From: Naegleria gruberi
Taxonomy: Eukaryota
Assembly: GCA_000004985.1 (NCBI GenBank)
Contig: GG738855.1
Reading direction: 5' to 3' (one strand)
DNA: 64,000 bases
A model generated the notes under the pieces. The model saw only the letters and a list, made by a program, of their open reading frames with translations, did no database searches and was not told where the DNA came from. Position numbers and translations under genes: made by a program. Below are positions 12,989-57,091 of this stretch, in pieces. The first letter of the stretch is position 1. Every line of letters begins with the position of its first letter.

Positions 12989-13071
12989 GCCCGCGTAGCA
13001 GAGTGGTCAAATGCGTAAGACTTAAGATCTTATCCCGAATGGGTTCGTGGGTTCGAACCCCACCGCTGGCA
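12989..13071 (+). tRNA. tRNA-Leu(UAA), type II with long variable arm
   Basis: Acceptor GCCCGCG/CGCTGGC with one C-T mismatch. D-stem GCA/TGC with loop GAGTGGTCAAA. Anticodon stem TAAGA/TCTTA and loop CTTAAGA (TAA). Variable arm CCCGAATGGG. T-arm GTGGG-TTCGAAC-CCCAC. Discriminator A. T-rich terminator follows. Confidence 0.7.
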
Positions 13072-22437: not shown

Positions 22438-24483
22438 ATGCACAACAATAAAACATTTGCCTGTTGTTGTGCAACTCTCTTGGTGGTGCTATTGAGCATT
22501 TTGATGATCTCATCGAGGGATGCTCTCGTATTTGGAAAGTTTATCATCAACAACAAAAAAGTAATGCCAACCATTACTTTTGAAGAGTTGAAAAAGTTAT
22601 TGCCAAAGGAAGATTTGAGCAAGTTGAAGGCCGAAGCCTTGATTAATACAGTATCTATTTATTGTTCATCATCAGCATCATCAACAAGTAAATATTATTT
22701 GAAGGAAACATCGACATCATTTACCTATACATTTGGTAATTATGATTTTGATAAAGCCATCGCTGTTGGTATTCTCTATGATGGTTATTCACCAGTTTTG
22801 AATAATCAAACTGATGCTGTTGATGGTTGGATGCGTTTGTGGGTCTCTACCTTCACCAATGTTAATAGAGAATCAAGTGGTGTTGATGCTTGTTATAAAT
22901 CGGAAATTAACAGACAATATGCTGCTGGTATGGTTGAAGGTTTATTGACACAACCACAAATTTACAACTTTTTCCAAAATCAATATAGTAATTGGAAGTT
23001 TGCAAAGAATAATGTGGATTTGAAGGCCAAGTTTGGTGACAATAATGAATGGGTCAAGTCACACGAAAGATTCAGGTCATCTCAACAACAAGGAAGAAAT
23101 AGTTCTAATTATTATTTCCCATCTGCATTGGTTGCCTACATGCAAGACAATTACAATTGGTTGAATCAACAAGTTGCTTCCAATCCAACATCTAATTATT
23201 GGAAACAAGTTGGTGGAACTTTGACTCAATTCAATGGTCTTGTTCAAGGTTATACTATTCGTGCCGAACAAGAAAAGAATGAAGTTTATGGAAGTTTGAA
23301 TTGGTTGGATTTATACTTTTTACAAGCTGCAGGTGATATGGAAACTTTGGAAACAGCTATTAAGGATCCATCAACCACTACCAGATCCAGAAATAATAAT
23401 AATAATAATGGAATTGTTCTCCCAGATGAAGAAACCATGACTGATTGTAGTGCTCTCATTAAGATTACACCAGATTGCCTTAACCTTTTCGCAGGACATA
23501 CAACATGGAGAGGATACAACATTATCAACAAGATGTACAAGGTCTATAGTTTATTGTTGAACAATGTTGCCTCAAAGACTGTATCATTTGCTTCATCTCC
23601 AAGCTTTTTGAGTAGTAAGGATGATTTCTATGTCACTGAAAATGGTCTCGTCACTATGGAAACAACCAATGATGTTTTCAATGAAACCCTCTTCCAATAT
23701 ATTACACCAAAGAGTGTCTTGTGTTGGGTTCGTTCCATTGTTGCCAACAGACTTGCTACAACCTCTAAGGAATGGGTCTACTATTTTGGACTCTACAATT
23801 CTGGTACTTATAACAATCAATGGATGGCTTTGGATTACAAGAACTTTAAACCTGGAGTATGTCATTTGCCAAAGGATTCTTTCTGGATTTTGGAACAAAT
23901 TCCTGGATCCGTCATGACTAGAGATGTTACTGATGTTTTGAATAAGCAATCCTTCTGGAGCTCTTTTAATATTCCTTATTTTGAACATATTTATAACATT
24001 TCAGGATATCAACAAGCCAAGCAAAAGTTTGGTAATGATTATGATTATAATTTGTGTTCTAGAGCTCTCATTTTCAAGAGAGAACAAGCCAAGATTGGAG
24101 CTGATAGATCTAAACCAGTTGATTATAAGGATTTCGGTAGAGTTTTACAATTCAATGAATGGAAGACTGATCCATACAGTTTAGGCGATCCTAGCAAAGC
24201 TGTCTCATCTAGATATGATTTGAGAGATCTAAGATTCGCTGCCTTTGGTGGTATTGATACTAAGGTTACTGACTATGTCAAGAATTTGAAACACACTTCC
24301 ATGTGGGGTATTTGTGGTCCTACCCATCAAGACGAATCTCAAACTCCACCATTCACTTGGACTGATAAATTCAAGGCCACCCATTTGGGCCAACCTCAAA
24401 CTTATAATTTCGATTGGGTTGATTTGGAAGATGTTGACTCCTTCTATTCCTCTCTTTCACAAAAATCTAAAAGAAGAAATTAA
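22438..24483 (+). CDS. Phospholipase B-like (PLBD/LAMA-like Ntn-hydrolase) secreted protein
   Basis: Signal peptide present. Ntn autocleavage/nucleophile motif DCSALIKI. Motif YNNQWMALDYKNFKPG (PLB-like NQWM.DYK). Length 681 aa. Confidence 0.7.
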   Translation: MHNNKTFACCCATLLVVLLSILMISSRDALVFGKFIINNKKVMPTITFEELKKLLPKEDLSKLKAEALINTVSIYCSSSASSTSKYYLKETSTSFTYTFGNYDFDKAIAVGILYDGYSPVLNNQTDAVDGWMRLWVSTFTNVNRESSGVDACYKSEINRQYAAGMVEGLLTQPQIYNFFQNQYSNWKFAKNNVDLKAKFGDNNEWVKSHERFRSSQQQGRNSSNYYFPSALVAYMQDNYNWLNQQVASNPTSNYWKQVGGTLTQFNGLVQGYTIRAEQEKNEVYGSLNWLDLYFLQAAGDMETLETAIKDPSTTTRSRNNNNNNGIVLPDEETMTDCSALIKITPDCLNLFAGHTTWRGYNIINKMYKVYSLLLNNVASKTVSFASSPSFLSSKDDFYVTENGLVTMETTNDVFNETLFQYITPKSVLCWVRSIVANRLATTSKEWVYYFGLYNSGTYNNQWMALDYKNFKPGVCHLPKDSFWILEQIPGSVMTRDVTDVLNKQSFWSSFNIPYFEHIYNISGYQQAKQKFGNDYDYNLCSRALIFKREQAKIGADRSKPVDYKDFGRVLQFNEWKTDPYSLGDPSKAVSSRYDLRDLRFAAFGGIDTKVTDYVKNLKHTSMWGICGPTHQDESQTPPFTWTDKFKATHLGQPQTYNFDWVDLEDVDSFYSSLSQKSKRRN

Positions 24484-25945: not shown

Positions 25946-28900
25946 TTATTGTTGTAACTGGTTTCGGATTGTGTTTGCTTCATAAGAAGAGATAATACTT
26001 CTTCCTCTAGTTTTCCTAGTTACTGCTTCCTCTTTTTGTTCGATACTTTGTGCAGAGGTCCTCATAAATTCATTCATTTCTTCATCGGTTGGCATTGGTT
26101 TCGTGTGGTGTTCATCATTCAGCAAGTAACATTTTGTCATTCCCTTTCCTTTCACTTCGATATTCCTCTCCTCAAAAACAAATCCCAAATCATGAACTCT
26201 CTCATAGGTTGATCTGGTTATCTGTATTCTTCCTGAAAGAGATGTTGATTCCATTCGAGAAGCTGTGTTAACTGCATCACCCCACAAATCGTAGGCAAAC
26301 TTTTTGGTTCCAATCACACCAGCCACAACTGACCCAGTATTGATACCAATGAATGTATCACCTCTCTTCAATCGTTGGGCAACTGATTCAGGTAAGATAT
26401 TCTTCAATAGATTTTCAGAGTGTTTCTTCTCGTCTTCCAACAGAGCTGCTGCCTTTTTTTCTGAGGTGATATCCTTTATGGTTAAAATAATTAGAACGCC
26501 CTTTCCTGATACCTTAACTGTGAAAAGATTGAGTTTTGTTGGGAATTTTGTTCCATTTTTTCTTAAACATTCGGATTCTAATGAATCATGACCTCCACTA
26601 TCATTTCCTGAAAACTCATTTACGAGGGCACTCACTGATTTTCTGACAGATTCTTTTGTTTTCCCTTCCTCGAATATGGAATAGAAGGAGGTTCCAAGGA
26701 TTTCCTGTGTTGCAAGACCAAGCATATTAAGGGCTGGTGTGTTGATTAGTTCCACTTCTCCTTCTGTATTGATGATTATTGAACCATCAACACTTGAATT
26801 AATTACAGAGCATACGCCCGAATAAGATCCTTGTCCTTCATCTGATTGCCTTTCTGATTTTAGACTAAACTTATTAGACAATGGATCTGAGAATAGATTG
26901 TAGAGTGCTAAATTCTTCAATCTCTCATTGTTTTCGAGAGTTTCAATAGGAATATAATTCAATAGCATCTTTGTGTAGTAATATTGATTAGAATTCGACC
27001 CCATAATTGAGAGAATCAATTTACAAAAAATTAAAGAAATACAAGTACCCAAAATAGTAAATAACAATACAGAAACATAACTGGATTTCTGAAGAAACTC
27101 TTGCAAATTCTTGCATAAATGATGCTAGTTTTAGAGAGAGAGGATATGACCTAGCTTGATTAGTGTAATGTTCAAAAAACAAGGTACTAATTTCTTGCAT
27201 TGTAAAGTTGGTTGACTGGTATTTGTAGAATTTCTTAGTTAACTCAGACACTTTGGATGAAGTTGAAACAAATTCAGACATCATATATTCGACACCAATA
27301 CAATAACTATAGTAATTTTGCACATTAAATGTAAAATTATTTGCTTGCAAATATTCAGTACAATTATCTGAAACTCCAAATTTCAATGTCTTGTCCATCG
27401 ATGGATAGATACCAACAAGAGGTGTATCGTATGCTAAATATTATGGAAATTATCAGTAATTAAATTGAGGTTGAAACTTACGAATATTAATATTACCAAA
27501 TATCAGATCCGTATAATTAGACGAAAGTCCATCAATTTGATCCAAAAGAATGTGGCTCAGCTCGTCAAATGTAGAACTAGTTCTTAAAAACGGATGGGCA
27601 ATGTTAGTAGCCCCAAAGTTGTTGGTATTTCCTAAACCATAAACGGATAAAAGTTCTGATAAGTAGTATCCACAAATTTGTACAAAATAAATTACTCTAG
27701 CTCCAGCTTGAATATTATAATAAGTTTTGAGTGCGCTTACTGCATTTCCATTAATTTCATTATAAAACATTCCCAAACAAAATGGGTTGACTAAAACCAA
27801 AACCATGACTGAAACTATGAGGGTGTACTTGGCTTTGGTAATTTTCGAAATCAAACTGGAATCAAGTGAAGAGTCAATAGATGATTGCTTGGAAAGTGAC
27901 TGATATATTCTAGCTATCTTGTCTCTTGGAGTCTCCTTCTTGATTGTTTTTACCAATCTTTTAAGGTAGTACTGTCTGTAAAGAACAGTAATAATGAAGC
28001 ACATAGCGATTGGCAACAATGCTAAACTACCAGCTACGAGATAGATTTGAAAATACGATAATAATGAAGTTGTGGATAATTGGCTAGAATCTACATAATT
28101 CGAACAAAATGCAGACAGAACATCAAATGCATTATCTCTGTTACTCCAATAATACATGAAACTATAGTCCTGTATAGAATTCATGAAAGTACCATTAATA
28201 ACAGACCTAACGAGCTGATCTCTTGTTGATTGAGAAATTGTTGTGGAGTTGGACAATAACAATAAATCATTGAGAGGAAAACTTTCTTGGATTCTTTCTA
28301 AGAAGCTTTTCAGATTATTGGTAAATTCATTGACTGATATTCTTCTTATTTGCACTGTACCTGAATAGTATCCATTGTCTCTAATCGTAGGAATTAATGC
28401 TGTGTGTTCTCCTGCACCGTAACTATTTATGAAATTAGCAAAAGAGCTCAATAAACTTACGCTGTATAGATAGGAGCATCAAAAACACCTTTTTGTGCAA
28501 GTAATATCAAATCGTGTAGAACATTCTTGTCATTTTCCATTCTATGAAGATAGTTTTGGATATATTCCTTTAGTAAGAGTTAGAGAATGTTATATTGGAG
28601 GGATACTACTTACCTGAAAGGTTTCTGTTGGGAGACTATCATATTCTGTCTTCCAATCACTTCCATAATTAATATAATAATTAATTGCACTTTGCATACT
28701 TCTGACATTTCTTATTACAGACATTCCAACTTCCTCAGTCAAACAAGCAGAATTCAAGTTTACAACACCAACTCTAATCGAAGATCCAATGTAAATAGCA
28801 AAAGAAGCGCCTCCTAAACCAACACTGAAAATGATCACAAAAATTAAAATAAACAGACTGTTTCTCAAACTTTCGTTTGGTTTGTTCCTAATTCCATTCC

Positions 28901-30833
28901 TGAACAATAGGTCCTTGTGCATTTCATGTTCTTCTTCTTCGTCTACCTCACTTACTGGTGCTTCAGAGAATAAATCAGATTCGGTAGGATCGAATGAAGT
29001 TGGTACTACTTGTGACTCTTTTCTAGGCCTTTTAGCACTCATGTACAAACCTCTTGCATCCTTTTCCAATCGATTGGCTTCTTCATAGAGGGTTTCAGAT
29101 TTCACCTTGTCAAACTGAAAAAGCTCAACGTACGTGGCATACAACCTGAGAATCTGTTTACTTCTCTTACTTCCCATTAATTCCTCAAACATTTGATTAC
29201 ATTCCACTGTAATCTCTGCAATCTTATTTGCAATCTTTTCAATGGTCGAGTATTGTGGTGATTCTTCAATAAGTTCCTTCCAAAAGTCTCTGTGGAGAGA
29301 CAGAAGCATATCCTGATTGTATTTCAATTCTTTGATGGTTCCATCGTCACCCAAATCAGAACTATTAATTGATGAGATATTTAGCCTATGCTCTTGCAAT
29401 TCTAATGATTTGTATAGGGAAATAGTTCTCATAAAAATATTCTTTGAATGTCTAACAATATGGTAGAGTATATCAATGGATTTGTCCAAATTGATGCTCT
29501 CATCTTCTTCTGCATGAGCTAACAGCATGGAAATGTAAAATAAACATTTAGGATCTCTGATATTCTTATTTATGAGCGTCTTGGCAGTAAGTAAATATAA
29601 TTCCCTTTCTGTCACATCTCCAGCAACAATTGCATGCTTTATTCTATGGTATTGACTAAAATAGAAGCTTAATTTAGAGAAATATCCTCTTCCATGATTC
29701 TCTTGCATAATATTTGTACAATTTACATCAACGCATGCAAGAATTGACTTTCTGTCAGATGATTTCAGATCAATCCCACTGAGTAGGGTTTTTCTGACTG
29801 AGTTGATTATCAAGCGCTGGTACAATTCCATCAAGATTATGAAAATAACAAAGAAAATGATTGCCAAGCCAAATGTCAAAGGCAGGCCAATTATTTGTAA
29901 ATAGAAATTATTTCCCTTCAGTATAGTAGAAACCAGTGAACCAATAGAAACGCCTGTTCTAGCACCTGCAACAGCAAATAATATTGAATTATCAACAGTA
30001 TTAAAACATGTCTTGAAATAGAATGTAACTGAAGCAAATATCAAGCTCATTACAATATTCAATGAATCTGAGATGATCTTGTATTCCAATGGAATTGAAA
30101 ATATGAGTAATACACCCATAAAGTTTACAATGTCAAGCGTCATAATATGAATGGGATAAGATGAGCAAAAAGGAACCCTATCATAAGTATTCATGTCACT
30201 AACAATCAATCTATTCAGGATTATTAATGCAAAGAGTATTGCCAAACATCCAATAGCTAATACAATTACTACCATGTTTCCAGAATCAATACAAGATACT
30301 TGATTGTACCTGTACAATAGTCGCTCCAATGTAGTTTCATTAATGAGATTCGAACAATTATAAAATCCCACCAGTATGTTTACGAAAAGAGGAGAAAGTA
30401 CAAGAAGTAAATTACCAAATATCCATAATCCTATTCTTACATATCTAATATTATCGAGTGCTTTCGTAACTACCCACACAGAGGCAATGCAAAGAACCAA
30501 ATTCATCATGACAAACATCATAACACCCAAACCTATTCCAATACTTGCATAATATCCCCACATGTCCACCAGCAATGTAATGGGGAAATTGATTATTGAA
30601 TATATTATATTCGAGTATAACTCTCCTACCTCTCCATTTCTAATCGAAGGAATAAACACAGAAATATACAGAAATAAGGAATGAAACAATAGAGTTGATA
30701 GATACCATTTCCATCCACGCTTTGAACCCTGTATCTTTACGGAAAGGAATGTGGAGAGAGTATTTTGGAGAGTCTTATTATTGAGGTTGGCTCTAATCAA
30801 ATTCTGACTAATCGAACTGCCAATATCAGTCAT
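25946..30833 (-). CDS. Large polytopic membrane protein with PAS domain and a truncated class III nucleotidyl-cyclase homology domain (multi-exon; one unresolved frame break)
   Basis: Minus-strand exons: complement(28614..30833) (~8 TM block plus cytoplasmic region plus TM), complement(28461..28567), complement(27482..28422), and complement(~27107..27433) which continues in another frame as ORF complement(25946..27106). Introns are GTAAGT...AG at 28568..28613, 28423..28460 and 27434..27481. The C-terminal part has TM, PAS (GSIIINTEGEVELINTPALNMLGLATQEILGTSFYSIFEEG...ILTIKDITSEKK) and cyclase motifs LLKNILPESVAQRLKRGDT|FIGINTGSVVAGVIGTKKFAYDLWGDAVNTASRMES. The ~90-aa segment with the FSDIVGFT/IGDAYM metal-binding aspartates is absent. 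The frame discontinuity at 27021..27106 has no plausible intron. Confidence 0.5.
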
Positions 30834-31328
30834 CCTTTTTTTTAATTTCCTACTCTGATGAATTGTAGATGATGAGAATATTAGAAAAATTCATTATATA
30901 ATTGGAGAGATTATAATTATTATGGATGATTATTGAATCTCTAGAAATATATATATTATGAAATAGAGATGGAGATGGAATAATTATAATTTAATAATAT
31001 TAGCTGTTACGTATGATGGTTAGTGCTGTTTTCCTAATTTTGATCGGATCGTAGCAGTAAAGTGCTCACTAGCCATCAAACATTTTTACATTTTTTTAAT
31101 TGTTATGTTTAACGAGAGAAGTGAATTGGTGGTGATATTATTTCCACGTTCCTGTTCAATTACAACAAGCAATGTTACATCATTCTAATCTAGAATTATA
31201 GTGATGATACTCGACTTCCACTATTGAAAACAAGTGAAAATTAAAAACTTTTTATAAATTTGTAAGTTTCTCTTAAATTTGTTCGATTTGACAAATTGTA
31301 AATGGAAATTAAAAGTTACAATTATATC

Positions 31329-34300
31329 TTATGCAACATTCTTTGCCTTCTTCATTCTGGCTCGTATGAAAAGTGCAATCACAACAGCAAGAAGAACACC
31401 AGCAACGCACACGACAACTACTCCACCAACTGATGAGGCTACTACAGCAATTAACACTGTGTTGTCGTTCACTAGGATTGGTTCTGAGTTTTCTGGTTCT
31501 CTTCCCTTTGTGTTTGCCTTTTTATAGTTTTGGTCAATTACTGCAAAGGAAGTCAAGTGACTAGTTCTGCAACTCATTGAAAAAGTAACAATATTTGAGG
31601 AGGGAGAAAATTTCAAATCATTAATTGTCGTTTCTATGCCGTCTGTCTTCCACTCCTTGTCTGAATTATCAAAAAACATGCAGGTGAAATTTAATAACGC
31701 ATTTGTATCTTTGGCAGTTGACAAATTGGAGAAGTACAATTCGATAGGTTCTTCCAGGTCAACTATTGGAATTTTCTCATCATTGATATTGAACATGGAA
31801 ATTGTTACCACTGAACTAATTGCATAAGCTTCCTCACTTGAAGGACCACTTGAAGAAGAAACTGAGCTAATCACCTTTACCACCTCAGTTGAATTAAATC
31901 CTCTTTCATTGATAAGATAATCTTTCACTGCTGTAGGAAAATTGACTGTTACTGAACTTCCAAACTTTGTGAACGTGATATTCTGGTTATTAACCTCTTT
32001 TAACGAATAAATCAATTCTTTCGTCTCAATATTTCCATTTTGTCCACCACATTTGAAGGTGTTATTGACCAATTCTAAAGTTCCAATACAGTAAGGAGTG
32101 GTACAATTTCTACCAATCCATCCTTCCTTACAAATGCAATTATCAGGTCCAATACATGTTCCTTGATTACAAACTCTTTGATCAATCGAAGGAATTCCAA
32201 AACAAATTGGAACAGAACAGTCCGAACCAGTATAATTGGCATTTCAGAGACAAGTATTTAATCCAACACACGAACCATGTGAAGAACAAACTGCCTCATT
32301 ATTTTCTGGTATTTCATTACATGAAACCATTTGACATTCCGAGCCAAAATACCCAACCTCACATTTACAAATGTTGAATGATTGGCATGAGCCCTTTCCT
32401 CTGCAAACTGATGAAGAATTACTTGATTTTCCATAGCAAGATGTGAAATTACATTGAGGACCTGAATAACCTTCCTTACAAAGACACGAATCCTTATTGA
32501 AACAAGTTCCGTGTGAAGAGCAAGCAGTCAACTCATTCTTTCCAATACCAAAACAATAGAACTGATCACATTGGTTACCATAATAACCTAATTTACAAGT
32601 GCAGGAATTAGGCGAAGAGCAAATTCCATTTGATGAACAAGTAGAAACGTTTCTATTAGAAAGTCCAAAACAAATTGGAATGTCACATGCAACACCAGTG
32701 AAATTTGCATTACATTCACAAGTATTGACATTGACACATGAGCCATTTCTAAAATTACAAACTGAAGAGTCAGTGGATGGGATTGAAAAACAAAGAGGAA
32801 GTTGACATGAATTTCCTGTAAAATTTGGATCACATTTGCAAGTGTTCAATTCTGTACAATTTCCATTTCCAGAACAAACTGAACTATTCGAATTCTTCAA
32901 ACCAAAACAATAGAAATTTTCACAATTATTACCAAAATAACCTGAATTGCAGTCACAAGTATTGAACCCGCTGCATTTTCCTCTTCCTGAGCAAACATTA
33001 GTTTCATTATTTCGAATTCCATAACAGGAAGTCAACTCACAATTAGATCCTTCATAGAACTCATTACAAATACACTTATTAGGTGAAACACACGTTCCTT
33101 TCCCACTACAAACTTTAGAATTGATGGCAACAATACCATTACACATTTGAATATCACATTCTGGTCCTCCATATCTATTCGAAAGTGAACAGTTACATGT
33201 ATTATATCCTACACATGTTCCATTTCTATTACAAACGTTTGGATCATTAGAAAGTTTCCCAAAACATACTGGAAAGCAAGGAGAAGGTGTTCCATCATCA
33301 TTACAAACTAATCTATGAAATTTCTTAATGGAAGTTCCATCAATGAATAGAAATTGATTATTATCTATCATTGTAATACCCATTATGCTTTTTAGAGTTG
33401 GAATAGTTCCATCTGGAAGAATAGCTTTTCCTCCAATACCAACAAGTGTTGAGATTATTCCATTGTCAGGAGAAACCATACGAATCCTTGAATTGTCTGT
33501 ATCTGCCACATATAAAGTGCCATCTGGAGCCAAAACTGCCGAATGTGCTCTATTTATCGATGCACTATATAATTGTTAAAAGAAACATGTATTCGATTTA
33601 GACTAAAGTGATGTTAACTTACCTTTTAGCTGGACCGCCATCTCCACTAAATGAAAATGATCCACTCCCATCTCCAACCAATGTTGAGATAATATCTGTC
33701 GCTTTGCTAACAACTCGTATAGCTCCACTGAAAGTGTCAGCAATCACCAAATCATCTTTTTCACTCAATGAAATTCCATAACTGAAATCGATTTGAGTTT
33801 GAGAGCCAACTACTTGACCATCCCCAGAATAACCTCTTGTTCCACCAATATAGGTATATATAAAACCTGTTGTTGGTTTGATATTTCTAATTCTGGCATT
33901 ATTGGTATCAAGAATGTAGACTAAACCAGAGGTATTACTGTAAGCAACAGAGTAAGGGGTGTCAAGTTTAGCTGCAATGGCTAGCTCTCCATCTCCAGTA
34001 AATCCTGCTGATCCAGTTCCTGCAATAGTTGAAATAAACCCATTAGAAACCTTTCGAATTCTATTGTTATAAGAATCTGCAATATAAACATCACCTTTGA
34101 ATGGATCTACAGAAACACCTCTTGGGAAATACAACTTTGCATTGATTGCCAGCACTCCATCTCCAGAAAACCCTCCACTTCCAGTTCCGGCTATGGTTGT
34201 AATCGTACCATTCAATTAATCTTTCGAATTTTGTGAGCATTTGCATCTGCAATATATAATCTCACCATTAGCATAGGCAATAGCATGTGGAAATAAAAAT

Positions 34301-34455
34301 TTAGCCAAGAGAGCTTGACCACCATCTCCAGAATCACCACTTGAAGATGATTGTCCAGCAATTGAAGTGACAAGTGTCAGATCATAAACTGCATTGACAT
34401 GCATAATAGTAATACAAAGAAGAACAATGATCAACAAGAGCACCTCTTTTGCCAT
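31329..34455 (-). CDS. Single-pass adhesion-like protein: signal peptide - NHL-repeat beta-propeller - ~13 tenascin-type EGF repeats - GPS/GAIN-like motif - TM - short basic tail (contains frame errors and one in-frame TGA)
   Basis: Signal peptide MAKEVLLLIIVLLCITIMHVNA. NHL repeats (VYIADSYNNRIRKV, VYILDTNNARIRNI, LYVADTDNSRIRMV). Intron 33565..33622 is GTAAGT...ATATAG. EGF repeats of the form C.G.G.C...N.C.C..G(Y/F).G..C. Juxtamembrane CMFFDNSDKEWKTDGIETT...VTFSMSCRTSHLTSFAVI resembles a GPS autoproteolysis motif. TM VLIAVVASSVGGVVVVCVAGVLLAVVIALF. Two compensating frameshifts at about 34205-34260 and a TGA at complement(32244..32246). Confidence 0.55.
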
Positions 34456-34606
34456 TTTGTTTCTAAGATAATATTGTCAAGTAGTAAGAAATCTACATTT
34501 CATTTCGGCTAGTTTCGGGATGTTGAATCTCATTCGAAATAATCTTCCTTTACACCTGAAAAGCGACTCGTCATCAATGATCAATCTCATCAAAATGACA
34601 GTTTAT

Positions 34607-35746
34607 TTAAATTACAACAAGATTTTTCAATACATAATTACATTTGCCATCAAATACTGTTCCTGAAGGTGATTTGAATCCATTGGTTGTAATAAACAAG
34701 ACAATTGTGTCAACCAATGAATAAGATTCACTTTCCAATTCGTATTGAACGAATCCATCAGTAAGTTTCTTTTGAGTAATGCTAAAACTTGGATTGTCTA
34801 ATGTGTTCATGTACCAAGTTGAGTAACTTGAGCCACTGTTAACAACATTAGTTGGTTTTGAATTTCTGACGAAATAACGTTTGATACTCAAGTTGATTGT
34901 ATCAGTATATGGACAGGATCCACCATTCGCAATTTCAAAACGAATCTTCTTAATAGTTGCTGATCTTGGTAGTTCAATAGTTAAAGGAGTTTGTGTGAAA
35001 GTTCCAATTGAATATTGACTACTACTAGAAGTTAAAGAATGATAGTAATAATCACATCTATAACTATCAGAAGCACAATATGTAAATTGATTACCAATCA
35101 AGAAAACTTTTCCTGCTTTCAAAATGGTAGCATCATGATAAATTCCAGTAAATGAGCTAGTCTTTCCTTCAATGAATTCAATAAGAGCATTGTCATTGGA
35201 AGTGATTTGTCTATTCTTTGCAATCTTGTTAGAAGATCCAGGCTCTAAAAACCATAATCTTTCTTTCAATTCTGCAATATCCTTATTCATCACGTCAAAC
35301 ATCAAATCAATTTTTTCTTGTTGAGATATTTCAATCTTCTCCAACTTGAAATTGTACATTAAAAGTGAATCTGATGGATCTGGCAATACAATATTAATGA
35401 CATTTCCATTAATGGAATAGGAAGGTTTGACAACACTCATTGAAACACAACTTTTGTAATATCTAAATTCTGCCAAATTAGAATTACCATCTTGATAGAT
35501 GTATTTGTTGTATTGAAGGGAAGTTTCCATTGTGAGGAGAGTTGCGTTTAGTTTCATTGTTACTTGAATTGTATTCGAATCTTGTTTCTTTTCAATGGTA
35601 AAGACGAATTGACCAAAACCTGGACCATCTAGACCTGGTTGACCACGAAGGTGTAGTTGTTTTGCAAGTGGTGGTTGATATTGCGCACTTGCACAACTGA
35701 ATAGAACAACGAAAACTAAAGAGATTAGGATAATGTTTAGTTTCAT
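34607..35746 (-). CDS. Secreted protein of unknown function (family shared with the ORF at 51944..52897)
   Basis: 379-aa ORF with signal peptide MKLNIILISLVFVVLFSCASA. Shares blocks with the 51944 ORF: EFRYYKSC / HFKYYKTC, and KIDLMFDVMNKDIAELKERLWF / KLNTMLEVMMKDIAQLKGMLWF. Confidence 0.5.
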   Translation of the reverse strand: MKLNIILISLVFVVLFSCASAQYQPPLAKQLHLRGQPGLDGPGFGQFVFTIEKKQDSNTIQVTMKLNATLLTMETSLQYNKYIYQDGNSNLAEFRYYKSCVSMSVVKPSYSINGNVINIVLPDPSDSLLMYNFKLEKIEISQQEKIDLMFDVMNKDIAELKERLWFLEPGSSNKIAKNRQITSNDNALIEFIEGKTSSFTGIYHDATILKAGKVFLIGNQFTYCASDSYRCDYYYHSLTSSSSQYSIGTFTQTPLTIELPRSATIKKIRFEIANGGSCPYTDTINLSIKRYFVRNSKPTNVVNSGSSYSTWYMNTLDNPSFSITQKKLTDGFVQYELESESYSLVDTIVLFITTNGFKSPSGTVFDGKCNYVLKNLVVI

Positions 35747-36141: not shown

Positions 36142-39043
36142 ATGAATCGCACCAACACGCTTTCGTTTCTTCTTCTTCTGACATTATCCATTCTTCTTTT
36201 AACACTTTCGCGTATCCATGCAGCCATCAAAACTTCATCAATTCTTGCCTTTGGCTATAATCATAGATGGTAAATTCGGTCAGACACCAAATTTTGGTCA
36301 AAAATTACCTGTCAGACATTTGACTCTCGAACAGATATTGTTCAACTCTACTGAATCCATCAAAAAAGCAAAGATATCATCTAGTAACTTACCAGATAGT
36401 CTTCTTCCAGTGTTATCGCATGTGAGTGGAAGTAAACAAGGAGGAAATTTTGTGTTTCATGTCAAGTATATGAATAATGGTCAATTTGTGAATCAGACAG
36501 TGTTTTCATGTGGGAAAATGGGAAAGTTAACACCTCTAGTACCTATTTCGTCAACGCCGATGCCATCTTATGGATTTGTGAGTGAAGGAGTTTCGAATTA
36601 TGGAGACGAAAGATTGGTCAATCAAGAAATTATTAGTTTAAATTGCAAATATTCTTGTATTGCTGTAACTAATCAAGGATTATTATTCATCAAGTGGCAC
36701 AATGAAACTAGTTGGAAATTAGTAGAGTTGCCATCAACCTTCACAAATCCATCAAATTATGAAAATGTCAATTTGAGAATTTCACAAGCAGTCATTGGAG
36801 TTTCCTTAACTGAAGGATCTAACATTGAAGAAACCTTCCTATTACTGACTGATTCTGGATTTGTTTTGAGTTTTGGATATTGTAATAGTGGTTTGAGAGG
36901 TGATTCAACAAGTGCAACAGATTCTCTTTCGTCTAATTCATTCTATACCTTTACTACACTTTCAAATATTAGCTCCATTGGAGTTGGACCAGGTATTGGC
37001 TATGCCATCAATAGCACTGGTCAATTACACGTGTGGGGAAACAATCAAAATGGAATTCTAGGCGATCCTGACCCAAATCTCATTCTTTCAACTCCAAAAC
37101 ATTTGGAATTTAATTGTTTCATGAAGAAATTGTCATTTGGTGAGAGTTTTTGTTTATATTTGTGTCAGGATGGAAGAGTTTTTGGTAATGGACAAGATGC
37201 TGAAGGTGAAATATCAGCAGCACCTGGATCAATTATTTACACTCCTGTGGAAATTACTAGCTCGTTATCTGCTACATTTAATAGTGATATGATTATTGAC
37301 ATTTCGACTAGTGAAAAAACCAGTTTGGCTCTCACATCAACTGGTAAGATAGCAACATGGGGAGATGATAGTCAGCTCGCATTTGGAAGAGAAGGAAATG
37401 GTGGATACACAATTCCAGCAACATTTAGTTCTCTAAATATTGTAAAGGCATTTTTTGTTTACAATATTGGAATTGCAATTACAAATACCAATGAAACTTA
37501 TTATTGGGGATCTAATAGTGCTGGAGAAGCATGTTTGGGTGATTTGTGGTTTGCTGCCAAGCCAACTGTCATTCCAACATTGTCAGATGTTTCACAAACA
37601 CATGTCAATGAAATTTATTTAAGAGCTGCTTGTGGAATGATGCTATCCACAGATGGTATCACCAGTTCTAATATCACATACTGGGGGAAATGTAGTTCTG
37701 GATTGGATGGTCAATATGTTGATCCAACAGTCGCAGTTTCTGCCACAACCTTTGACAACTCACTTTTTAATAATGAAATTCTCAAAAAGTTTGCTCTGTT
37801 TAGAGGAACAGCTGTTGTTAACTCTATTTCTGGGAACAGTTATGGATGGGGAGAAGGTAGAGATTATCAATTGGGAGATGATTCAAGTCATCCTGTTCCA
37901 TTAGCACTATCAGTGAATGTTACTGATATTTTTAGCTCTAATCAATTTACAATTTTGGTTAAAAACGATGGTGGTGTTTATGGATTGGGGACTGTATCTA
38001 GCTCTGGAGCATTTGGTTCGTCCGTGCAAATGTTAACCACACTCACAAAATTGGACACTGATTACGTGACAAGTGATGGAAGCTCTGTAATTCAAGTTAA
38101 AGCTCTAGAAGGTATATCATATCTATTGACATCAAGTGGAAAGGTCTATGGTGCTGGATCCAATGCAAATCAACTCATTATTAACAATTCCACAACCAAA
38201 TTCGAAAACTTTGTAAGAATTAGTGGAGATGATTTACCAGATAATCACAGAATTCGAAAGATTATTGTCTTTCCAAATTCTCCACTAATATTTATTACCT
38301 ATGAAGGAGATGCTTATTATGTCTATCAAGGTATTCACAAGTTTCAGCTCCCAAATTCAAACGATTCATTTGTAATTCATGCATCTTCAAATTATTTGAA
38401 TTTCTATGTTATTACAAAGAAAGGAAATGTTTACGCTATGGGAACAACTAATGAATTTATGGAAATTTCTCAAAATCCAATGGTTTCAAGTTTGAATAAC
38501 ATGACATTGTATGCAACAAAGGAATCTCTTGGTGGTGTGCCTTACTTTATTTCCCCTGAAACCAATTTAGCCATTTTGGCCATCTCTAATGGATGGACAT
38601 GTAATGGAACAGCCTCTACCAGTGATTCTGTTTGTAATGGACATGGAGCATGTGTCGATCAGGATGTATGTGCCTGTAAAGAAAATTATGATGGATCCTA
38701 TTGTGAAAAGTTCACTTGTGGCGGAATTTCCAATGAGGATACAACCACTGTTTGTTCTGGAACAGGAAGTTGCACATCATTTGACACATGTGTTTGTAAA
38801 CAAGGATATAGTGGAGCAAATTGTGAAATTCCTTCTTGCTTTGGAGTAGCAAGTAGCAACACTGGAATTGTATGTAGTGGAAGAGGTCAATGTATGGGAT
38901 TAGATAAATGCAGTTGCATGACTGGATATTTTGGATCCAAGTGCGAATACAAGGCATGTTATTTTGAAAGTATAAGCGCCGGTACAGGAGCTATTCTATC
39001 AATCAAGAACAAGCTTTGTAGAGATATCAATAAATATCTTTAA
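36142..39043 (+). CDS. Secreted RCC1-repeat (beta-propeller) protein with C-terminal tenascin-type EGF repeats; N-terminal exon junction unresolved
   Basis: Signal peptide MNRTNTLSFLLLLTLSILLLTLS sits in ORF 36007..36273. The body is in ORF 36218..39043, so the frame switch near 36200-36265 implies a small intron or indel. RCC1-like repeats: GQLHVWGNNQNGILGD, GRVFGNGQDAEGEI, GKIATWGDDSQLAFG, YYWGSNSAGEACLGD, YGWGEGRDYQLGDD. C-terminal EGF modules CNGHGACVDQDVCACKENYDGSYCE and others. Confidence 0.55.
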
Positions 39044-39649
39044 TTTTGGAATGTTGTTGGTGCATGTTCTTTTTTCTGTTGTTTACAAACCATGTTTCTA
39101 ATTGGTCATGGATACTCTTTCCAGTCGTTCGTCCTTTTCATATTCATTTCTATTAACTGCATTGGATTCGAATTGAGGAGACTTCCTTCAATTGTTGACT
39201 TTTCTAGAATTGGATAATTTATCGTAAATTTATTAAATTATGGTGATGTAAATCTGATGGTGCCATAATTATTTGAGCTCCCGCTTCAATCAATTAAGAA
39301 ATCTTTGGCCAAGTTATAAAATAGGAAGAATAGCAATTATTGGCGCTAAAAAAAGGAAGTTATCTACGGTTATTTGAATTGAACACCATTTCTAATTCAA
39401 AGTAATTGTAACGTGTTGTGAGGAGATTCTTTTGTTTTCCTGTTATCACAATGTGTTGTTTGGAAACTTTAGCCCATTTACAGTAATTTGTCCTACGCTA
39501 GTCGTTTGTTTACCAATTCGGATTGTCATCATTAGAAACTGTACGAAACTTAATTAAAAAAAACACACAACAGTTCCTTCTCCATTTCCATCTCATTACT
39601 ATTCTCACAACTAGGCCTTCTATCAACAACATCAACACCAAAATACTGT

Positions 39650-41252
39650 TTGACAACAACTCCTTTTGAAATGACACAAGACCCACAACCAACATCTCAG
39701 CCAACTACTATCTCTACAAGTAATGACAAGCTCCATCCACCATCAACATCAACAACACAACTCCATCATCCAACAGAGAGCCATACTAAAAAAGATGCAG
39801 ATAACGAATCCAATAAATCATCTACTAAGAGCAGTTTCAGAAGAAAGCAAAAACAACGAGGCTGCTTATGTTTCCGAGGAGGGAAAGCAATTAAAGTGAA
39901 CACTTGTTGTGGTGTTTTGGAATTGTCTTGGATCAAAGTATTGGCCATTGTTGGTATGGCTCTTAATTCCTTCACATTTCTTGTATTATTGGCCTTGTTA
40001 ATTTTCAGTCAAAACTCAAATGCAGCCACTAATATTGATCTCTTAGCAATAAGAAGTGATTTATATCTGTATACAGCTTGGGTGGATGCTTATACACTTG
40101 TTGCTGCCTATTCCCAAAATAAGACCTATTTGAACTATTACTACAATTACCGTGATACCCTTAACACCTTGAAAGATGAACTTGTTTCAAAATTACCCTC
40201 CACTCTAGTGTCTCAACTCAATTCAACAGAAAGTTATCAATATTCTACATATTTAGAAGCTGCTGATACCCTGGCTGTGAATATGATGGAGAATGGAAAC
40301 TATTCGGGTGCTGTTTCTGTACTCACATCTGGATTCTACTATGCTACAAAGTTAAAATATAGAAATTTGCTGGATATTATTCTCAAATATATTCTGGATT
40401 CGCAAACAGAGGCAGAAAATTTATCGGATGCAGCTGTCATTTCTTCACTGGTCATTATAATGTGTAGCTGTTGCAGTGACAGTCCCTGCCATTCTGTTCA
40501 TCTTTGCATTCGCTATCAATAGAGAAGCATTAATGGCACAAAGATATAAAAAGGCAAGAGCTGTTGAATTGATGGATACAATGAGTAATGAAAAATTGAG
40601 AGCTCTCTTCCAAAAACACTGTATTAAGGAATTGAATAATGAAAACTTTGAATTTTTGGAAAAAGTTAATGAATATAAGAGATTGGTAGAACATCAAATT
40701 GAGTTGGTTCAATTATTGAGTGATGGAGATTCAATCCATTCCAATGAATTAACTCAATCTAGTTCCAATGTCTCAAGTAGTCAAATAAGTGCTGCCGAAG
40801 AACCCACTACAGCCAATACAAACACCAACAATTCATCAGATTCTAAAAAGAAGAAGCATACAATGACATCAGTCAAGTCCATTTCTGATTTGGAAAATGA
40901 GTTGGAAGAAATTGAAGGAAAAAAGTTTGCACTTGCCACTGAAATTTACAATAACTTCCTCGATTTGAAAGGACCAAAGACTGTCAACACCACCAAATCC
41001 CATGCTGATAAGGTAAAGATTGAATTGGAGTATTTCAAGAGCAAGCAAATTCATTCCTTGTCCGATGATTTGTTCACATCTTTGGAGAGTGAAATTTCCA
41101 TAGTCCTTCTCGATTCACATTATAGATTTAAAGAATCGATGGAATTTTTGAAGGAAATGAGAGTGAAGAGAATTAAAGATATCAATGAAAAGAAGAAGAT
41201 TAAATCCAATCAACACCACGATCAACACCATCATCACAATAATGGACATTAA
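39650..41252 (+). CDS. Two-TM membrane protein with cytoplasmic RGS domain (apparent +1 frameshift near 40468)
   Basis: ORFs 39650..40522 and 40476..41252 overlap in different frames. Reading through the overlap gives a continuous TM helix (SSLVIIM)CVAVAVTVPAILFIFAFAINREALMAQRYKK. It is followed by an RGS core LRALFQKHCIKELNNENFEFLEKVNEYKRL. A first TM VLAIVGMALNSFTFLVLLALLIF follows an S/T-rich N-terminus. Confidence 0.5.
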
Positions 41253-53357: not shown

Positions 53358-53407
53358 NNNNNNNNNNNNNNNNNNNNNNNNNNNNNNNNNNNNNNNNNNN
53401 NNNNNNN
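53358..53407. other. Scaffold gap (50 N); identical-length gaps at 61557-61606 and 63221-63270
   Basis: Runs of n in the sequence. Confidence 0.95.
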
Positions 53408-56400
53408 TAGTGTCATCACAGACTAAACCTTTAGATAATAATCAAAGTGGTTCTGGAAATGACCNCAGTTTCATCACAAACTAAACCCTTGGATAACAAC
53501 CAAGGTGGTTCTGAAAAGAACCTAGATGCTATTCTTCACGCCATCACTTCATTGGGTGAGAGAATTAAACATCTTGAAGCAGTTCCACCCATCCTTCAAG
53601 AAGCTGATCAACTTGATGACAACTCTGATGAGGATTCTGCTGAAGATTCCACTGGTAAACATTGGGGTATGTCAACAATCAAGGAGATTAGAAGACACTA
53701 CGAAGTTGGCGACAGATTAGCCGATGGAGATGTCTTAAGTTTTGTTTCAGCCAAAACTCTTCGTCGTTATCAAACCAATGATGCTCTTTTGAATAGAGTT
53801 CAATCATTAATGGCTAGATTTGAATCCGTTATTCATAATCATCGTACTCATCCCCGTTTGCAAGAAATCCAATCAAAGGGCTTGCAAAAGATGATGGAAA
53901 TGTTGCATTTGAAATCTAGACTACTCCATTTCGCTTTAAGTCACCCAATGAACGTTGCTAACATCATTGAAATCACAGAATTAGTTTATCTTCTCTGTGA
54001 GGTCGAGAAAATCTTCTTGGAAGAAGGTTTGTTTGATAGTAATTTTGAGGTTGCCACCAATTTCATTCAACCATTCGTACAGAGCAATACGTTCGCTGAC
54101 ATAACCGAAAAAGCACGTAGTAAGAAGAGAGAGAAAGCTGTTATCAAGACTGCTTTTGTTGGAAAGATTCAAAAACCCAACAAAATGAAAGAGAAGTTGA
54201 ACAAACCCTACACTTCTCAACACAACAGCTACTCTAAGTCTTACAAGAGTAACTCCAATTTTCAAAAATCAGGAGACTCAAAACCAAAGTACAACAACAA
54301 CAACGGTGGAGGATCCTTCAGCAAGGACCTCTGACTTGGTGGGTTGTCGTCTTGGCAAGTTTGTAACTCAGTGGGAGAGTTACAACTTCAACCCATTCAT
54401 AGTGGATTGGATTCGGAATGGAGTTCCAATCTACTCAAATCCCACCCTTTGGAAAGAATTCAAGCAAAGGAAGAATTTCTCTCCAAAGGAGACCTCTTGG
54501 ATGGATCAAGAAATCCAAGAGATGTTGAGTTCCAATGTCATCGAACTTGGAAACAAATCTACGGTACTCAATCCAATAAACATTGTCCCCAAGAAGGGCT
54601 CAGATCAGTTTCGTTTTATTCTGGATCTCAGGAAAGTAAACTTGGGGATCAAGGATACTTCGTTCAAGATGGACAACATTCAAAAATGTTTGAAGTTTGT
54701 TCAGAAAGGAATGTGGGCAACAAAGATAGACCTGAAGAAAGGCTATTTTCATGTTCCCATCAGAGAGAGTCATCGACACCTTCTGGGATTCAAGTACAAG
54801 AGCCTTGTATACCAATTCAAATGCCTTCCATTTGGTCTAAGTCAAGCTCCCAGAAACTTCACCAAGATAATGAAGGAACTAATGACCAAGTGGAGAAAGC
54901 AGGGCATCTTGGTATTCATTTACATCGACGATATATTGATTCTAAGCAACCACAAGGAAACTACCCAACAACACACAGAGATAATCTTGAAAGACCTAGA
55001 AACATTAGGATGGATTATACAGAAGGAGAAAAGTGTGTTGACACCTTGTCAATGCATAGAATTTCTGGGTCTGGAATTGGATTTAATATCAGGTTTGGTA
55101 AAAATTCCACTCAACAAACAAGCCACTGCGATAAAACTGATCCAAGACTTCTTGTCAGCGAACCAACTGAACAGATATGTAGCTTGCAAGAAAGTGGCTC
55201 AGTTTCTTGGGAAGATGGAATTTCTAACCCTATCAAACCATTATTTTGCACCATTTCTGGCTCGTCTTCGAAAGGATATGGTGAAAGTAGTAAACGACAA
55301 ATCCTGGCACGCATCGATGAGAATATTCAGAGGTGCAACCAAAGACCTCAAGATATTGAAAACTCTGATTCAGGAAAACAGTGGAGTTCCATTCGAACTG
55401 AACTCAATGAACCCGATTCGAGTGAATTCAGATGCTTGCCCAACAGGTTATGGAATCGCAGAATCAACCATTACAATTGGAAGATTCAATTCCTCAGAGC
55501 ACATCAATGTCAAAGAGTTAAAAACACTCCTCATTTTCTTCACACAAGCAGATCAATTAAACCTTTATGGTCCTGGTCAAGCATTCGAGATAAGAGGCGA
55601 CAATGTAACAGCAATATCTTATATAAGGAGAGGTTACGGAGTCATCGAAGAACTCTCACAAATAGCCAGAGATCTCTACAAAATTCTAATGAGAAGAAAA
55701 TGGTGGATTTCCAAAGTGATTTATATTCCCTCAAAGGAAAACATTTTGGCGGACAGACTGAGTCGTCTAACAGAATGGAAATCCTCTCAAGAACTATTGA
55801 ATCTAGTTCAGACAGAATTTGGAAAACACCACGTGGACAGATTCTCAACATTGGAATCAACCACAACAATTCAATTCAATTCATGGATAGAGAACGACAC
55901 ATTTCTGAACCCATGGGAACAAAATCTGATGAGCTATTGTGCTCCTCCTCTGGGTCTGATATCTCAAGCTCTAGTTCACTGCATCAAGTCAGGAGCCAAA
56001 GCGACATTTGTGGTTCCAGATTGGCCCTCTTCGATATGGTTTCCAGTCTTGCTAAAGATATCAGAAAGAATGATAACTGTTTCGAGAAAGATGCTTATAA
56101 TAACGCCCTTATCAGAGTTGCAAGACAAGTTCGAGAATTCGAATTTCCTGGTTGTTCAAGTGCATGGCAAGTTATTCAAACAATGAGAGAAATCAGTATT
56201 CTCTCTTCAATAGGTGAAAAAACCTTCAGAACCTACAACAGGATTTATGGTGGTTTTCTTTGGTTTATCAATGTGTTCGATCTTACCATTGATAATCCTT
56301 TAGCTATTGAATATTACATCTCTTACCTTCTGGTTAATGTTCAAGGTTACAAAGCAAATACTGTGCAAGCAGCTATTCAATTCTTTGCTAACCTTGATGG

Positions 56401-57091
56401 CAGAACAATTAATATTTCCGTCTCTTACCCTAAAGTTAAAAAAGGTGTCCTTAAGCTTTATTCACTTTCGGATAAAGTTTCTCTTCAAAGAGATCCGATA
56501 ACAATCAAACATTTGACTGATTATTTGAAGTGCAAAGACAAAGTGGATAATTTCACTTTCCGTCTTACATCTGCTATTCTAGTAATTGGTTTTAGACTAT
56601 TTGCAAGACCTGGTGAGGTTGCGCGACTAAAATGGTCATATATCAAGATGCTTAAAAAAGGAAGAATCAAGATTGATCTCAGTGGTCATAAAACTGACTT
56701 CTTCCTTATTGAAAAACCAATTACTATCGAAAGGAATACTAAAGATCCTAATCTTTGCCCAATTTCAATACTAAAATCATACATGGATTTGGTTAGGAAT
56801 TTCAAAGATGCTGAGTCCCCATTATTTTCCTTCGAAAACGACAAATTCTTTGATTCAGATGGTATTTCAAAAATACTAAAGAATGCAGTGGGTATAGTAG
56901 ATCAAGGCGTAACAGTCTCAGGTCACAGCCTTAGAATAGGTGCTATCACAGAAGGACTCAGAAAGGGTATGTCTACAACTGATCTAATGGTCGGTGCAAG
57001 ACATAAAAAGGAAAAAAATTTATTTCCTTACCTTAGATCTGAAGGCCTAGCTGGCAAGAATTTCACTAACACTCTATTTTCTCTGGACTAA

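What the first reader, a model, noticed from the sequence alone, without database searches (positions are those of the whole stretch)
32244..32246. In-frame TGA exactly at a conserved EGF cysteine position
In the EGF repeat ...GSCVGLNTCL*NANYTGSDCSVPICFG the stop TGA occupies the slot where every sister repeat has Cys (NTCECNANFTG, NTCKCDPNFTG, NTCDCNSGYFG). The ORF continues in the same frame for 305 more codons through the GPS motif and TM. A TGT/TGC to TGA change is a single base. The options are a sequencing error, a recent nonsense mutation that makes this a pseudogene or truncated ectodomain, or UGA recoding as selenocysteine. Selenocysteine is unlikely for a disulfide cysteine but is formally the classic Cys/Sec substitution position.
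Basis: seen in the sequence. Interest (0 to 1): 0.5.

Follow-up and report, generated by a model that had tools for sequence, protein, structure and literature searches.

The report
Nonsense codon in mis-annotated Naegleria pseudogene
The in-frame TGA is really in the sequence, but it is most likely an ordinary stop-creating mutation (less likely a base-call error) in a recently disabled amoeba surface-protein gene that also carries two frameshifts, not a selenocysteine codon.

Summary
The window is Naegleria gruberi nuclear DNA. On the minus strand, 34455..31329 encodes a surface protein. Its parts are a signal peptide, a six-blade NHL propeller, one 58-nt intron, ten teneurin-type EGF repeats, a GPS motif, a transmembrane helix and a short tail.

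The TGA at 32246..32244 is confirmed. It fills the fifth-cysteine slot of EGF repeat 9. All nine sister repeats have Cys there, and so do all eight aligned family members that have an EGF at that point.

Selenocysteine is not supported. No SECIS was found by Rfam at E<=10 or by a manual scan, and there is no significant structure downstream. The other 61 Cys codons in the EGF array are all TGT or TGC.

The same gene also has two frameshifts in its first NHL blade, with a TAA between them. That makes three disabling lesions in 3.1 kb. About 42 kb of other long ORFs in the window are intact.

The public gene model (880 aa) hides all three lesions behind invented introns. One of them is 1.45 kb long and removes 9.5 EGF repeats.

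The best reading is a young pseudogene or null allele. An assembly error is the main rival. No independent reads or close orthologues could be obtained. Interest is low.

The parts
32244..32246 (-). In-frame TGA at the fifth-Cys slot of EGF repeat 9. The likely origin is TGT to TGA.
31329..34455 (-). The whole NHL-EGF-GPS-TM gene, from ATG 34455 to TAA 31331..31329. The frame-corrected reconstruction is 1021 aa. It is read here as a young pseudogene or null allele.
   Evidence: Reconstruction; Pfam NHL, TEN_NHL, EGF_2, EGF_TEN and EGF_Teneurin hits; GPS hit.
34390..34455 (-). Start codon and a signal-peptide-like N-terminus, MAKEVLLLIIVLLCITIMHVNA. The public model places this inside an intron.
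   Evidence: The signal-peptide reading is inferred from the hydrophobic sequence and was not run through a predictor.
34251..34259 (-). Frameshift 1, either +1 or -2, inside the short TA run ATTATATATT in NHL blade 1.
   Evidence: The NHL consensus continues in the next frame (…ANGEI | YIADANAHKIRKIN). Only the frame-corrected peptide scores as an NHL repeat: 25.7 bits against no hit for the uncorrected peptide.
34210..34218 (-). Frameshift 2, either -1 or +2, which returns the reading to the original frame (…KIN | NGTITTIAG). In the uncorrected frame a TAA at 34218..34216 ends translation.
33565..33622 (-). A genuine 58-nt GT..AG intron (GTAAGT…TATAG). Removing it restores an uninterrupted NHL blade (…GDGGPAK-S-ASINRAHSAVLAPDGTLYVAD…).
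   Evidence: It is inferred from the sequence and the repeat periodicity; no transcript data were available.
32088..33266 (-). An array of ten teneurin-type EGF repeats. Repeat 9 spans 32321..32205.
31536..31682 (-). GPS motif, with the HLT candidate cleavage triplet at 31559..31551.
   Evidence: Pfam PF01825, 22.5 bits, equal to the gathering cut-off. A family member is named 'GAIN-B domain-containing protein' by UniRef.
31365..31457 (-). Single transmembrane helix, VLIAVVASSVGGVVVVCVAGVLLAVVIALFI, followed by the short basic tail RARMKKAKNVA.
   Evidence: Read directly from the sequence and conserved in family members.
30834..31328 (-). The 3' untranslated and intergenic region, up to the ATG of the next minus-strand gene. 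It contains no SECIS.
32176..33622 (-). The 1,447-nt 'intron' of the public model P0272. It splices out one NHL blade, 9.5 EGF repeats and the TGA. It is read here as an annotation artefact.
34191..34265 (-). The 75-nt 'intron' of the public model. It removes exactly the stretch that holds both frameshifts.

Best explanation
The TGA is an ordinary termination codon created by a single-base substitution, most likely TGT to TGA, in a structural disulfide cysteine codon. The gene is one member of a large Naegleria family of NHL-propeller / EGF / GPS / single-pass membrane proteins. This copy has recently lost function, either as a young pseudogene or as a null allele of a heterozygous or polyploid laboratory strain. 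It carries three independent disabling lesions: two frameshifts in the first NHL blade, with a TAA between them, and the TGA in EGF repeat 9. Everything else is still intact: 59 of 60 EGF cysteines, the GPS motif and the transmembrane helix. No recoding takes place. The public annotation conceals the lesions by fusing the upstream gene to this one and inventing introns around each lesion. Shown here: the lesions, the domain architecture, the absence of a SECIS and the structure of the annotation. Inferred: that the lesions exist in the organism rather than only in the assembly, and that the gene is non-functional.
For: The organism is N. gruberi: a neighbouring ORF is 100% identical to an NCBI N. 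gruberi protein on a 613-kb contig. The TGA sits at a Cys slot that is conserved in 9 of 9 sister repeats and in 8 of 8 aligned relatives with an EGF there. Two further lesions lie in the same gene: the NHL consensus jumps frame and jumps back, and only the corrected peptide scores as NHL, 25.7 bits against none. The lesions are concentrated. There are three in 3.1 kb and none in about 42 kb of other stop-free ORFs of at least 200 codons. Given the TGA, the rough chance that two more lesions fall in this gene is about 0.005. A Cys codon is an expected target, at 19 to 28% of one-step nonsense routes. No SECIS was found: Rfam at the gathering threshold on the whole window, Rfam at E<=10 on 30500-32400 and on 28500-35000, and a manual quartet/helix scan that gave only weak hits lacking the AA motif and overlapping the next gene's start. 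RNA folds downstream of the UGA and of the 3' UTR are not unusual, with z-scores of -1.3 and -1.7. The annotated model P0272 skips each lesion.
Against: The rest of the gene shows no decay. All other EGF cysteines are kept, and three long open segments of 198, 443 and 304 codons survive. Any inactivation must therefore be very recent, and the same pattern would result from base-call errors. The two frameshifts are only about 43 nt apart and cancel each other, which can also happen in a stretch of poor Sanger read. The assembly is imperfect: the window holds 152 N. No independent reads, transcripts or close orthologues could be retrieved. The concentration statistic is biased, because the comparison ORFs were picked for being intact.
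Confidence: 0.65

Rival explanations
1. Sequencing or assembly error. The organism has TGT or TGC at this codon and an intact first NHL blade, and the gene is a normal functional family member.
For: The remainder of the gene is perfectly preserved. The frameshifts form a nearby, mutually compensating pair within short low-complexity runs (ATTATATATT and AATTG), which is typical of a poor read end. The window contains N runs, so it is draft-quality sequence.
Against: This requires three separate errors, including a substitution 2 kb from the indels, in one 3.1-kb gene. About 42 kb of other long ORFs in the same window are uninterrupted. The N. gruberi reference is a multi-fold Sanger assembly (my own knowledge of Fritz-Laylin et al. 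2010, not checked here), in which substitution errors in the consensus are rare.
Confidence: 0.22
2. The gene is functional and bypasses the lesion. Either the annotated 1.45-kb intron is real, giving a protein without the EGF array, or low-level near-cognate readthrough of UGA yields some full-length protein.
For: The annotated model uses the same GTAAGT donor as the genuine short intron and an AG acceptor that keeps the frame. The downstream ORF, GPS motif and transmembrane helix are intact.
Against: The supposed intron contains a 443-codon open frame that encodes an NHL blade and 9.5 perfect EGF repeats, which is not intron-like. The upstream frameshifts still have to be bypassed, and the annotated 75-nt 'intron' destroys an NHL blade. 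The base after the stop is A (UGA-A). By general knowledge the leaky contexts are UGA-C and UGA-CUAG, so this is not one. There is no notable downstream structure.
Confidence: 0.08
3. UGA is recoded as selenocysteine, placing Sec at an EGF disulfide position.
For: UGA aligned with Cys is the classic Sec/Cys signature. N. gruberi is reported to have the Sec synthesis and insertion machinery (da Silva et al. 2013, as cited in PMC4561486).
Against: No SECIS lies in the 495-nt 3' region or anywhere in 28500-35000 at E<=10, and none lies in the whole window at the gathering threshold. The manual scan was negative. No homologue has Sec. The position is a structural disulfide cysteine rather than a redox-active site, and the other 61 Cys codons in the array are TGT or TGC. 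The gene is also frameshifted upstream.
Confidence: 0.02
4. A variant genetic code in which UGA encodes Cys, as in Euplotes, or another amino acid.
For: Only the coincidence of the TGA with a Cys slot.
Against: Only two TGAs in the window have at least 100 open codons on both sides. The other is the end of the gag ORF of a DIRS-like retroelement. In this gene's EGF array 61 Cys codons are TGT or TGC and one position is TGA. Several other long ORFs end in TGA. NCBI proteins translated with the standard code match the window exactly.
Confidence: 0.01

Closest known systems
Young (unitary or duplicated) pseudogene, or null allele, within an expanded gene family
   Same: It has clear homology to intact family members and several independent disabling lesions (one nonsense, two frameshifts). 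The sequence is otherwise well preserved.
   Different: No transcript, population or orthologue data are available to show relaxed constraint. Decay is minimal, so an assembly artefact is not excluded.
Naegleria NHL-repeat / teneurin-type EGF / GAIN-GPS single-pass membrane proteins (for example N. lovaniensis C9374_012056 'GAIN-B domain-containing protein', P0142; N. fowleri FDP41_011322, P0308)
   Same: The same domain order: signal peptide, NHL propeller, EGF array, stalk with the GPS motif C-x-C-x-HLT-SFAV, transmembrane helix and short basic tail. The C-terminal 300 aa align end to end with E-values down to 1e-56.
   Different: Identity is only about 33 to 40% over the C-terminal module, so these are paralogues rather than orthologues. 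This copy has ten EGF repeats and is interrupted.
Eukaryotic selenoprotein genes (UGA-Sec plus a 3'-UTR SECIS)
   Same: An in-frame UGA aligned with Cys in homologues, in an organism reported to have Sec machinery.
   Different: There is no SECIS and no Sec-containing homologue. The site is a structural disulfide rather than a catalytic redox residue, and the gene has other disabling lesions.
Metazoan teneurins and adhesion-GPCR ectodomains
   Same: Pfam teneurin-type EGF and NHL models match (EGF_TEN 122 bits, TEN_NHL). A GPS motif precedes the membrane span.
   Different: The protein has a single transmembrane helix, not a 7TM domain, and no YD-shell or Tox-GHH. The resemblance is in domain composition only, and no orthology is implied.

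Membership tests
Eukaryotic selenoprotein gene | An in-frame UGA at a position where homologues have Cys or Sec | tested here: met
   Cys is present in 9 of 9 sister repeats and 8 of 8 aligned relatives. No Sec homologue was seen.
Eukaryotic selenoprotein gene | A SECIS stem-loop (AUGA…AA…GA kink-turn) in the 3' UTR | tested here: not met
   Rfam gave no SECIS hit at the gathering threshold on the window, or at E<=10 on 30500-32400 and 28500-35000. The manual scan gave only weak hits without the AA motif, overlapping the next gene's ATG. The UTR fold has z -1.7. Caveat: no Naegleria SECIS was available as a positive control.
Eukaryotic selenoprotein gene | The organism has Sec machinery (tRNA-Sec, SPS2, EFSec, SBP2) | not testable with these tools
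   This rests on the literature only: da Silva et al. 2013, as cited in PMC4561486.
Eukaryotic selenoprotein gene | An otherwise intact reading frame | tested here: not met
   Two frameshifts and a TAA lie in NHL blade 1.
Pseudogene | Homology to a functional protein family | tested here: met
   Pfam NHL, EGF and GPS hits, and 578 relatives at E<=1e-3 for the C-terminal module.
Pseudogene | Disabling lesions (premature stop, frameshift) | tested here: met
   TGA at 32246..32244; frameshifts at about 34251-34259 and 34210-34218, with TAA at 34218..34216.
Pseudogene | The lesions are present in the organism rather than being assembly errors, and selection is relaxed or the product is absent | not testable with these tools
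   No reads, transcripts or close orthologues could be retrieved.
Naegleria NHL-EGF-GPS membrane protein family | NHL beta-propeller repeats | tested here: met
   PF01436 and PF25021 hits. Six blades can be read in the reconstruction.
Naegleria NHL-EGF-GPS membrane protein family | A teneurin-type EGF array | tested here: met
   EGF_2 130.6 bits, EGF_TEN 122.4 bits and EGF_Teneurin 120.2 bits. Ten six-Cys units are present.
Naegleria NHL-EGF-GPS membrane protein family | A GPS motif followed by a single transmembrane helix | tested here: met
   PF01825 scores 22.5 bits, at the cut-off. The …CRTSHLTSFAVID… motif and the hydrophobic helix are conserved across relatives.
UGA-reassigned nuclear genetic code (Euplotes-type UGA=Cys) | Many in-frame UGAs at conserved sense positions across genes, and UGA not used as a terminator | tested here: not met
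   One TGA against 61 TGT or TGC in the EGF array. Only two internal TGAs in the window have long ORFs on both sides, and one of them is a retroelement gag stop. Other long ORFs end in TGA.

The most novel reading that the evidence does not exclude
The UGA is decoded in vivo, either as selenocysteine through a non-canonical Naegleria SECIS that the models missed, or as Cys through near-cognate readthrough. The two upstream frameshifts would then be assembly errors. The amoeba would make a full-length adhesion-type receptor with a recoded residue at an EGF disulfide position.
Probability: 0.02. Interest if true: 0.75.

Novelty: new member of a known kind. Interest (0 to 1): 0.12.

Why it matters
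The biological importance is small: this is one more decaying copy, or a draft-assembly error, in a large lineage-specific gene family. The practical value lies in annotation. The public N. gruberi model for this locus (880 aa 'predicted protein') appears to be a chimera. It fuses two genes and removes a whole ten-repeat EGF array in order to avoid a stop codon. Anyone who uses that model for domain censuses of Naegleria adhesion, GAIN or GPS proteins, or who mines UGA/Cys pairs for new selenoproteins, would be misled. The locus is also a useful negative example: a UGA aligned with Cys in a Cys-rich repeat is expected by mutation alone.

Tried and rejected
1. Selenocysteine was rejected after Rfam SECIS searches at three scopes, a custom SECIS-core scan with a shuffled control, and folds of the region after the UGA and of the 3' UTR.
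2. A variant genetic code was rejected on codon counts and on the only other internal TGA, which is a DIRS-like gag stop.
3. A short intron that removes the TGA was considered. The first AG after the TGA is at about 32176. Any such intron would use a poor GTCTCT donor and would fuse two EGF repeats into a non-EGF cysteine pattern. This rests on inspection only.
4. Independent copies of the locus were sought without success. Exact-protein look-ups for four products of the region returned nothing. A metagenome DNA pattern with N at the third stop base returned nothing. A metagenome protein-guided scan returned only one relative at 41% identity.
5. The first homology search, with the C-terminal 370 aa, returned no hit. 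Yet the annotated protein P0272 shares about 283 identical residues with that query. This looks like a tool-sensitivity quirk and is unexplained. The exhaustive representative search and the full-length search recovered the family.
6. No orthologue close enough for a dN/dS test was found. The best identity is about 40% for the C-terminal module and 34 to 38% for the NHL-EGF part.

Full report
**Source of the window**

The window is eukaryotic, about 34% G+C, and comes from Naegleria gruberi. The ORF at 22438-24480 is 100% identical over its full length to an NCBI N. gruberi phospholipase-B-like protein on a 613,270-bp contig. The next best hits are N. lovaniensis and N. fowleri at 65 to 66%.

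**The observation**

On the minus strand, bases 32246..32244 are TGA in the context C-L-*-N-A. The frame is open for 443 codons before the TGA and 304 sense codons after it, and ends at TAA 31331..31329.

Splitting the Cys-rich region gives ten EGF units with the same six-Cys pattern. The TGA occupies the fifth-Cys slot (C-x-C) of unit 9, and all nine other units have Cys there. Pfam identifies the array as teneurin-type EGF: EGF_2 130.6 bits, EGF_TEN 122.4 bits and EGF_Teneurin 120.2 bits.

The downstream segment holds:
- a GPS motif, PF01825 at 22.5 bits, exactly at the gathering cut-off, with …CRTSHLTSFAVI…;
- a single hydrophobic transmembrane helix;
- a short basic tail.

**Gene anatomy**

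Upstream of the EGF array are NHL repeats (PF01436 and PF25021).

A 58-nt GT..AG intron (GTAAGT…TATAG, 33622..33565) joins …GDGGPAK to (S)ASINRAHSAVLAPDGTLYVAD… and restores an NHL blade of normal length.

The gene starts at ATG 34455 with a signal-peptide-like MAKEVLLLIIVLLCITIMHVNA. The frame-corrected product is 1021 aa. Its order is signal peptide, six NHL blades, ten EGF repeats, GPS, transmembrane helix.

**Two further lesions**

In the first NHL blade the consensus leaves the reading frame and returns to it about 43 nt later.
- Frame 0 reads …PHAIAYANGEIIYCRCKCSQNSKD*, with TAA at 34218..34216.
- The adjacent frame reads YIADANAHKIRKIN.
- Frame 0 then resumes with NGTITTIAGTGSGGFSGDG.

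The first shift lies in the run ATTATATATT (34259..34251). The second lies at AATTG (about 34218..34210).

Only the frame-corrected peptide scores as an NHL repeat across the junction, at 25.7 bits against a cut-off of 20. The uncorrected peptide gives no hit.

The gene therefore carries three independent disabling lesions, not one.

**The public annotation**

The NCBI/JGI 'predicted protein' P0272 (880 aa, same contig) is 100% identical to parts of this locus. Mapping it back shows four things.
- It starts with the upstream ORF 35746..34643, which has its own signal peptide and its own TAA.
- It splices over that stop and over the ATG and signal peptide of the NHL gene.
- It removes 75 nt (34265..34191) that contain exactly the two frameshifts, giving …AYAN|AGTGSGG….
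- It removes 1,447 nt (33622..32176), giving …GGPAK|RVCNQGTC….

The 1,447-nt removal discards an NHL blade, 9.5 EGF repeats and the TGA. A 443-codon open frame that encodes perfect EGF repeats is not an intron. The model is a gene-predictor workaround for the lesions.

**Relatives**

An exhaustive HMMER search with the 304 aa downstream of the TGA found 578 proteins at E<=1e-3. Many hits align only to the EGF part. About sixteen align end to end over the stalk, GPS and transmembrane module at 30 to 40% identity.

Those sixteen show the same NHL-EGF-GPS-TM architecture. They include N. lovaniensis C9374_012056, which UniRef names 'GAIN-B domain-containing protein'.

In an alignment of the last 400 residues, every member that has an EGF repeat at the corresponding place (8 of 8) has Cys in the TGA column.

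No relative is close enough to be an orthologue. A metagenome scan found only one relative at 41% identity.

**Is a stop at a Cys slot remarkable?**

It is not. In this Cys-rich sequence, Cys codons account for 19% of all single-substitution routes to a stop codon in exon 2 and 28% in the EGF array. Of the 61 Cys codons there, 49 are TGT, one transversion from TGA.

**Selenocysteine**

N. gruberi is reported to have Sec machinery (da Silva et al. 2013, cited in PMC4561486), so the hypothesis had to be tested. Several results count against it.
- Rfam found no SECIS in the whole window at gathering scores, or at E<=10 in 30500-32400 or 28500-35000.
- The 3' region is only 495 nt long before the next gene's ATG at 30833.
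- A custom scan for the AUGA/GA quartet with helix II gave three weak, overlapping hits at 8 to 9 of 12 pairs. They lack the AA motif and straddle the next gene's start. Mononucleotide shuffles gave 0.4 hits on average.
- Folding of the 100 nt beginning 3 nt upstream of the UGA gave z = -1.3, and folding of the 3' UTR gave z = -1.7. Neither is notable.
- No homologue has Sec, the residue is a structural disulfide cysteine, and the gene is frameshifted upstream.

Selenocysteine is effectively excluded. One caveat remains: no Naegleria SECIS was available as a positive control.

**Variant genetic code**

Only two TGAs in the window have at least 100 open codons on both sides. The other, at 54332..54334, ends the gag-like ORF of a DIRS-like retroelement. 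Other long ORFs end in TGA. Standard-code NCBI proteins match the window exactly.

**Real mutation or assembly error?**

This could not be settled directly. Exact-product look-ups and a DNA pattern scan of metagenomes returned nothing.

The indirect evidence favours real lesions. There are three in 3.1 kb and none in about 42 kb of other stop-free ORFs of at least 200 codons in the same window. Given the first lesion, the rough probability that two more fall in this gene is about 0.005. This figure is biased, because the comparison ORFs were selected for being intact.

Three points favour an error instead:
- the rest of the gene is flawless;
- the two indels are close together, cancel each other and lie in short low-complexity runs;
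- the window is draft sequence with 152 N.

**Probabilities**

I put about 0.65 on a genuine recent pseudogene or null allele. I put about 0.22 on assembly error, about 0.08 on some functional bypass, and 0.03 or less on any recoding.

**Verdict**

The finding is real but ordinary. The most useful product is the corrected gene structure and the demonstration that the public model for this locus is an artefact built around three lesions.

Noticed in passing
window 34607-35746 (-) and 31329-34455 (-): The public N. gruberi model P0272 (880 aa) fuses an upstream 379-aa secreted-type ORF to the NHL-EGF-GPS gene. The upstream ORF has its own signal peptide and its own TAA and has no Pfam hit. The fusion uses an intron of about 250 nt that swallows the second gene's ATG and signal peptide. 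These are probably two genes.
   Followed up: partly
window 53435-57091 (+): A DIRS-like retrotransposon. It has a gag-like ORF ending in TGA at 54332-54334, an overlapping ORF (54306-56183) with reverse transcriptase (PF00078, 92 bits) and a Dam-like methyltransferase hit, and a C-terminal segment resembling a tyrosine recombinase (…HSLRIGAITEG…), read by eye only. One search counted 152 Ns in the window. One is at 47102 and a run starts at 53358; the extent of that run was not measured.
   Followed up: partly
The word-indexed protein search with the C-terminal 370 aa returned no hit at E<=1e-3. Yet the database holds P0272, which shares about 283 identical residues with that query. This tool behaviour is unexplained.
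   Followed up: no
window 36218-39040 (+): The divergently oriented neighbour encodes an RCC1-like beta-propeller (PF25390, 280 bits) fused to teneurin-type EGF repeats. It is a second, different propeller-plus-EGF architecture next to the NHL-EGF gene.
   Followed up: no
window 25949-27106 (-) and 27456-28451 (-): A PAS plus adenylate/guanylate-cyclase ORF whose cyclase match covers only profile positions 104-182 of 183. A separate upstream ORF with apparent membrane segments ends in TGA. This may be an intron-split gene or another lesion. It was not examined.
   Followed up: no
window 12989-13071 (+): tRNA-Leu (anticodon TAA). It is the only Rfam or ARAGORN hit in the window.
   Followed up: no
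window 4598-6604 (+), 40476-41249 (+), 46726-48729 (+): Three separate ORFs with C-terminal RGS domains lie within 45 kb. The ORFs at 39554-40522 and 40461-41252 overlap in different frames, which means either an intron or a frameshift. This was not resolved.
   Followed up: no
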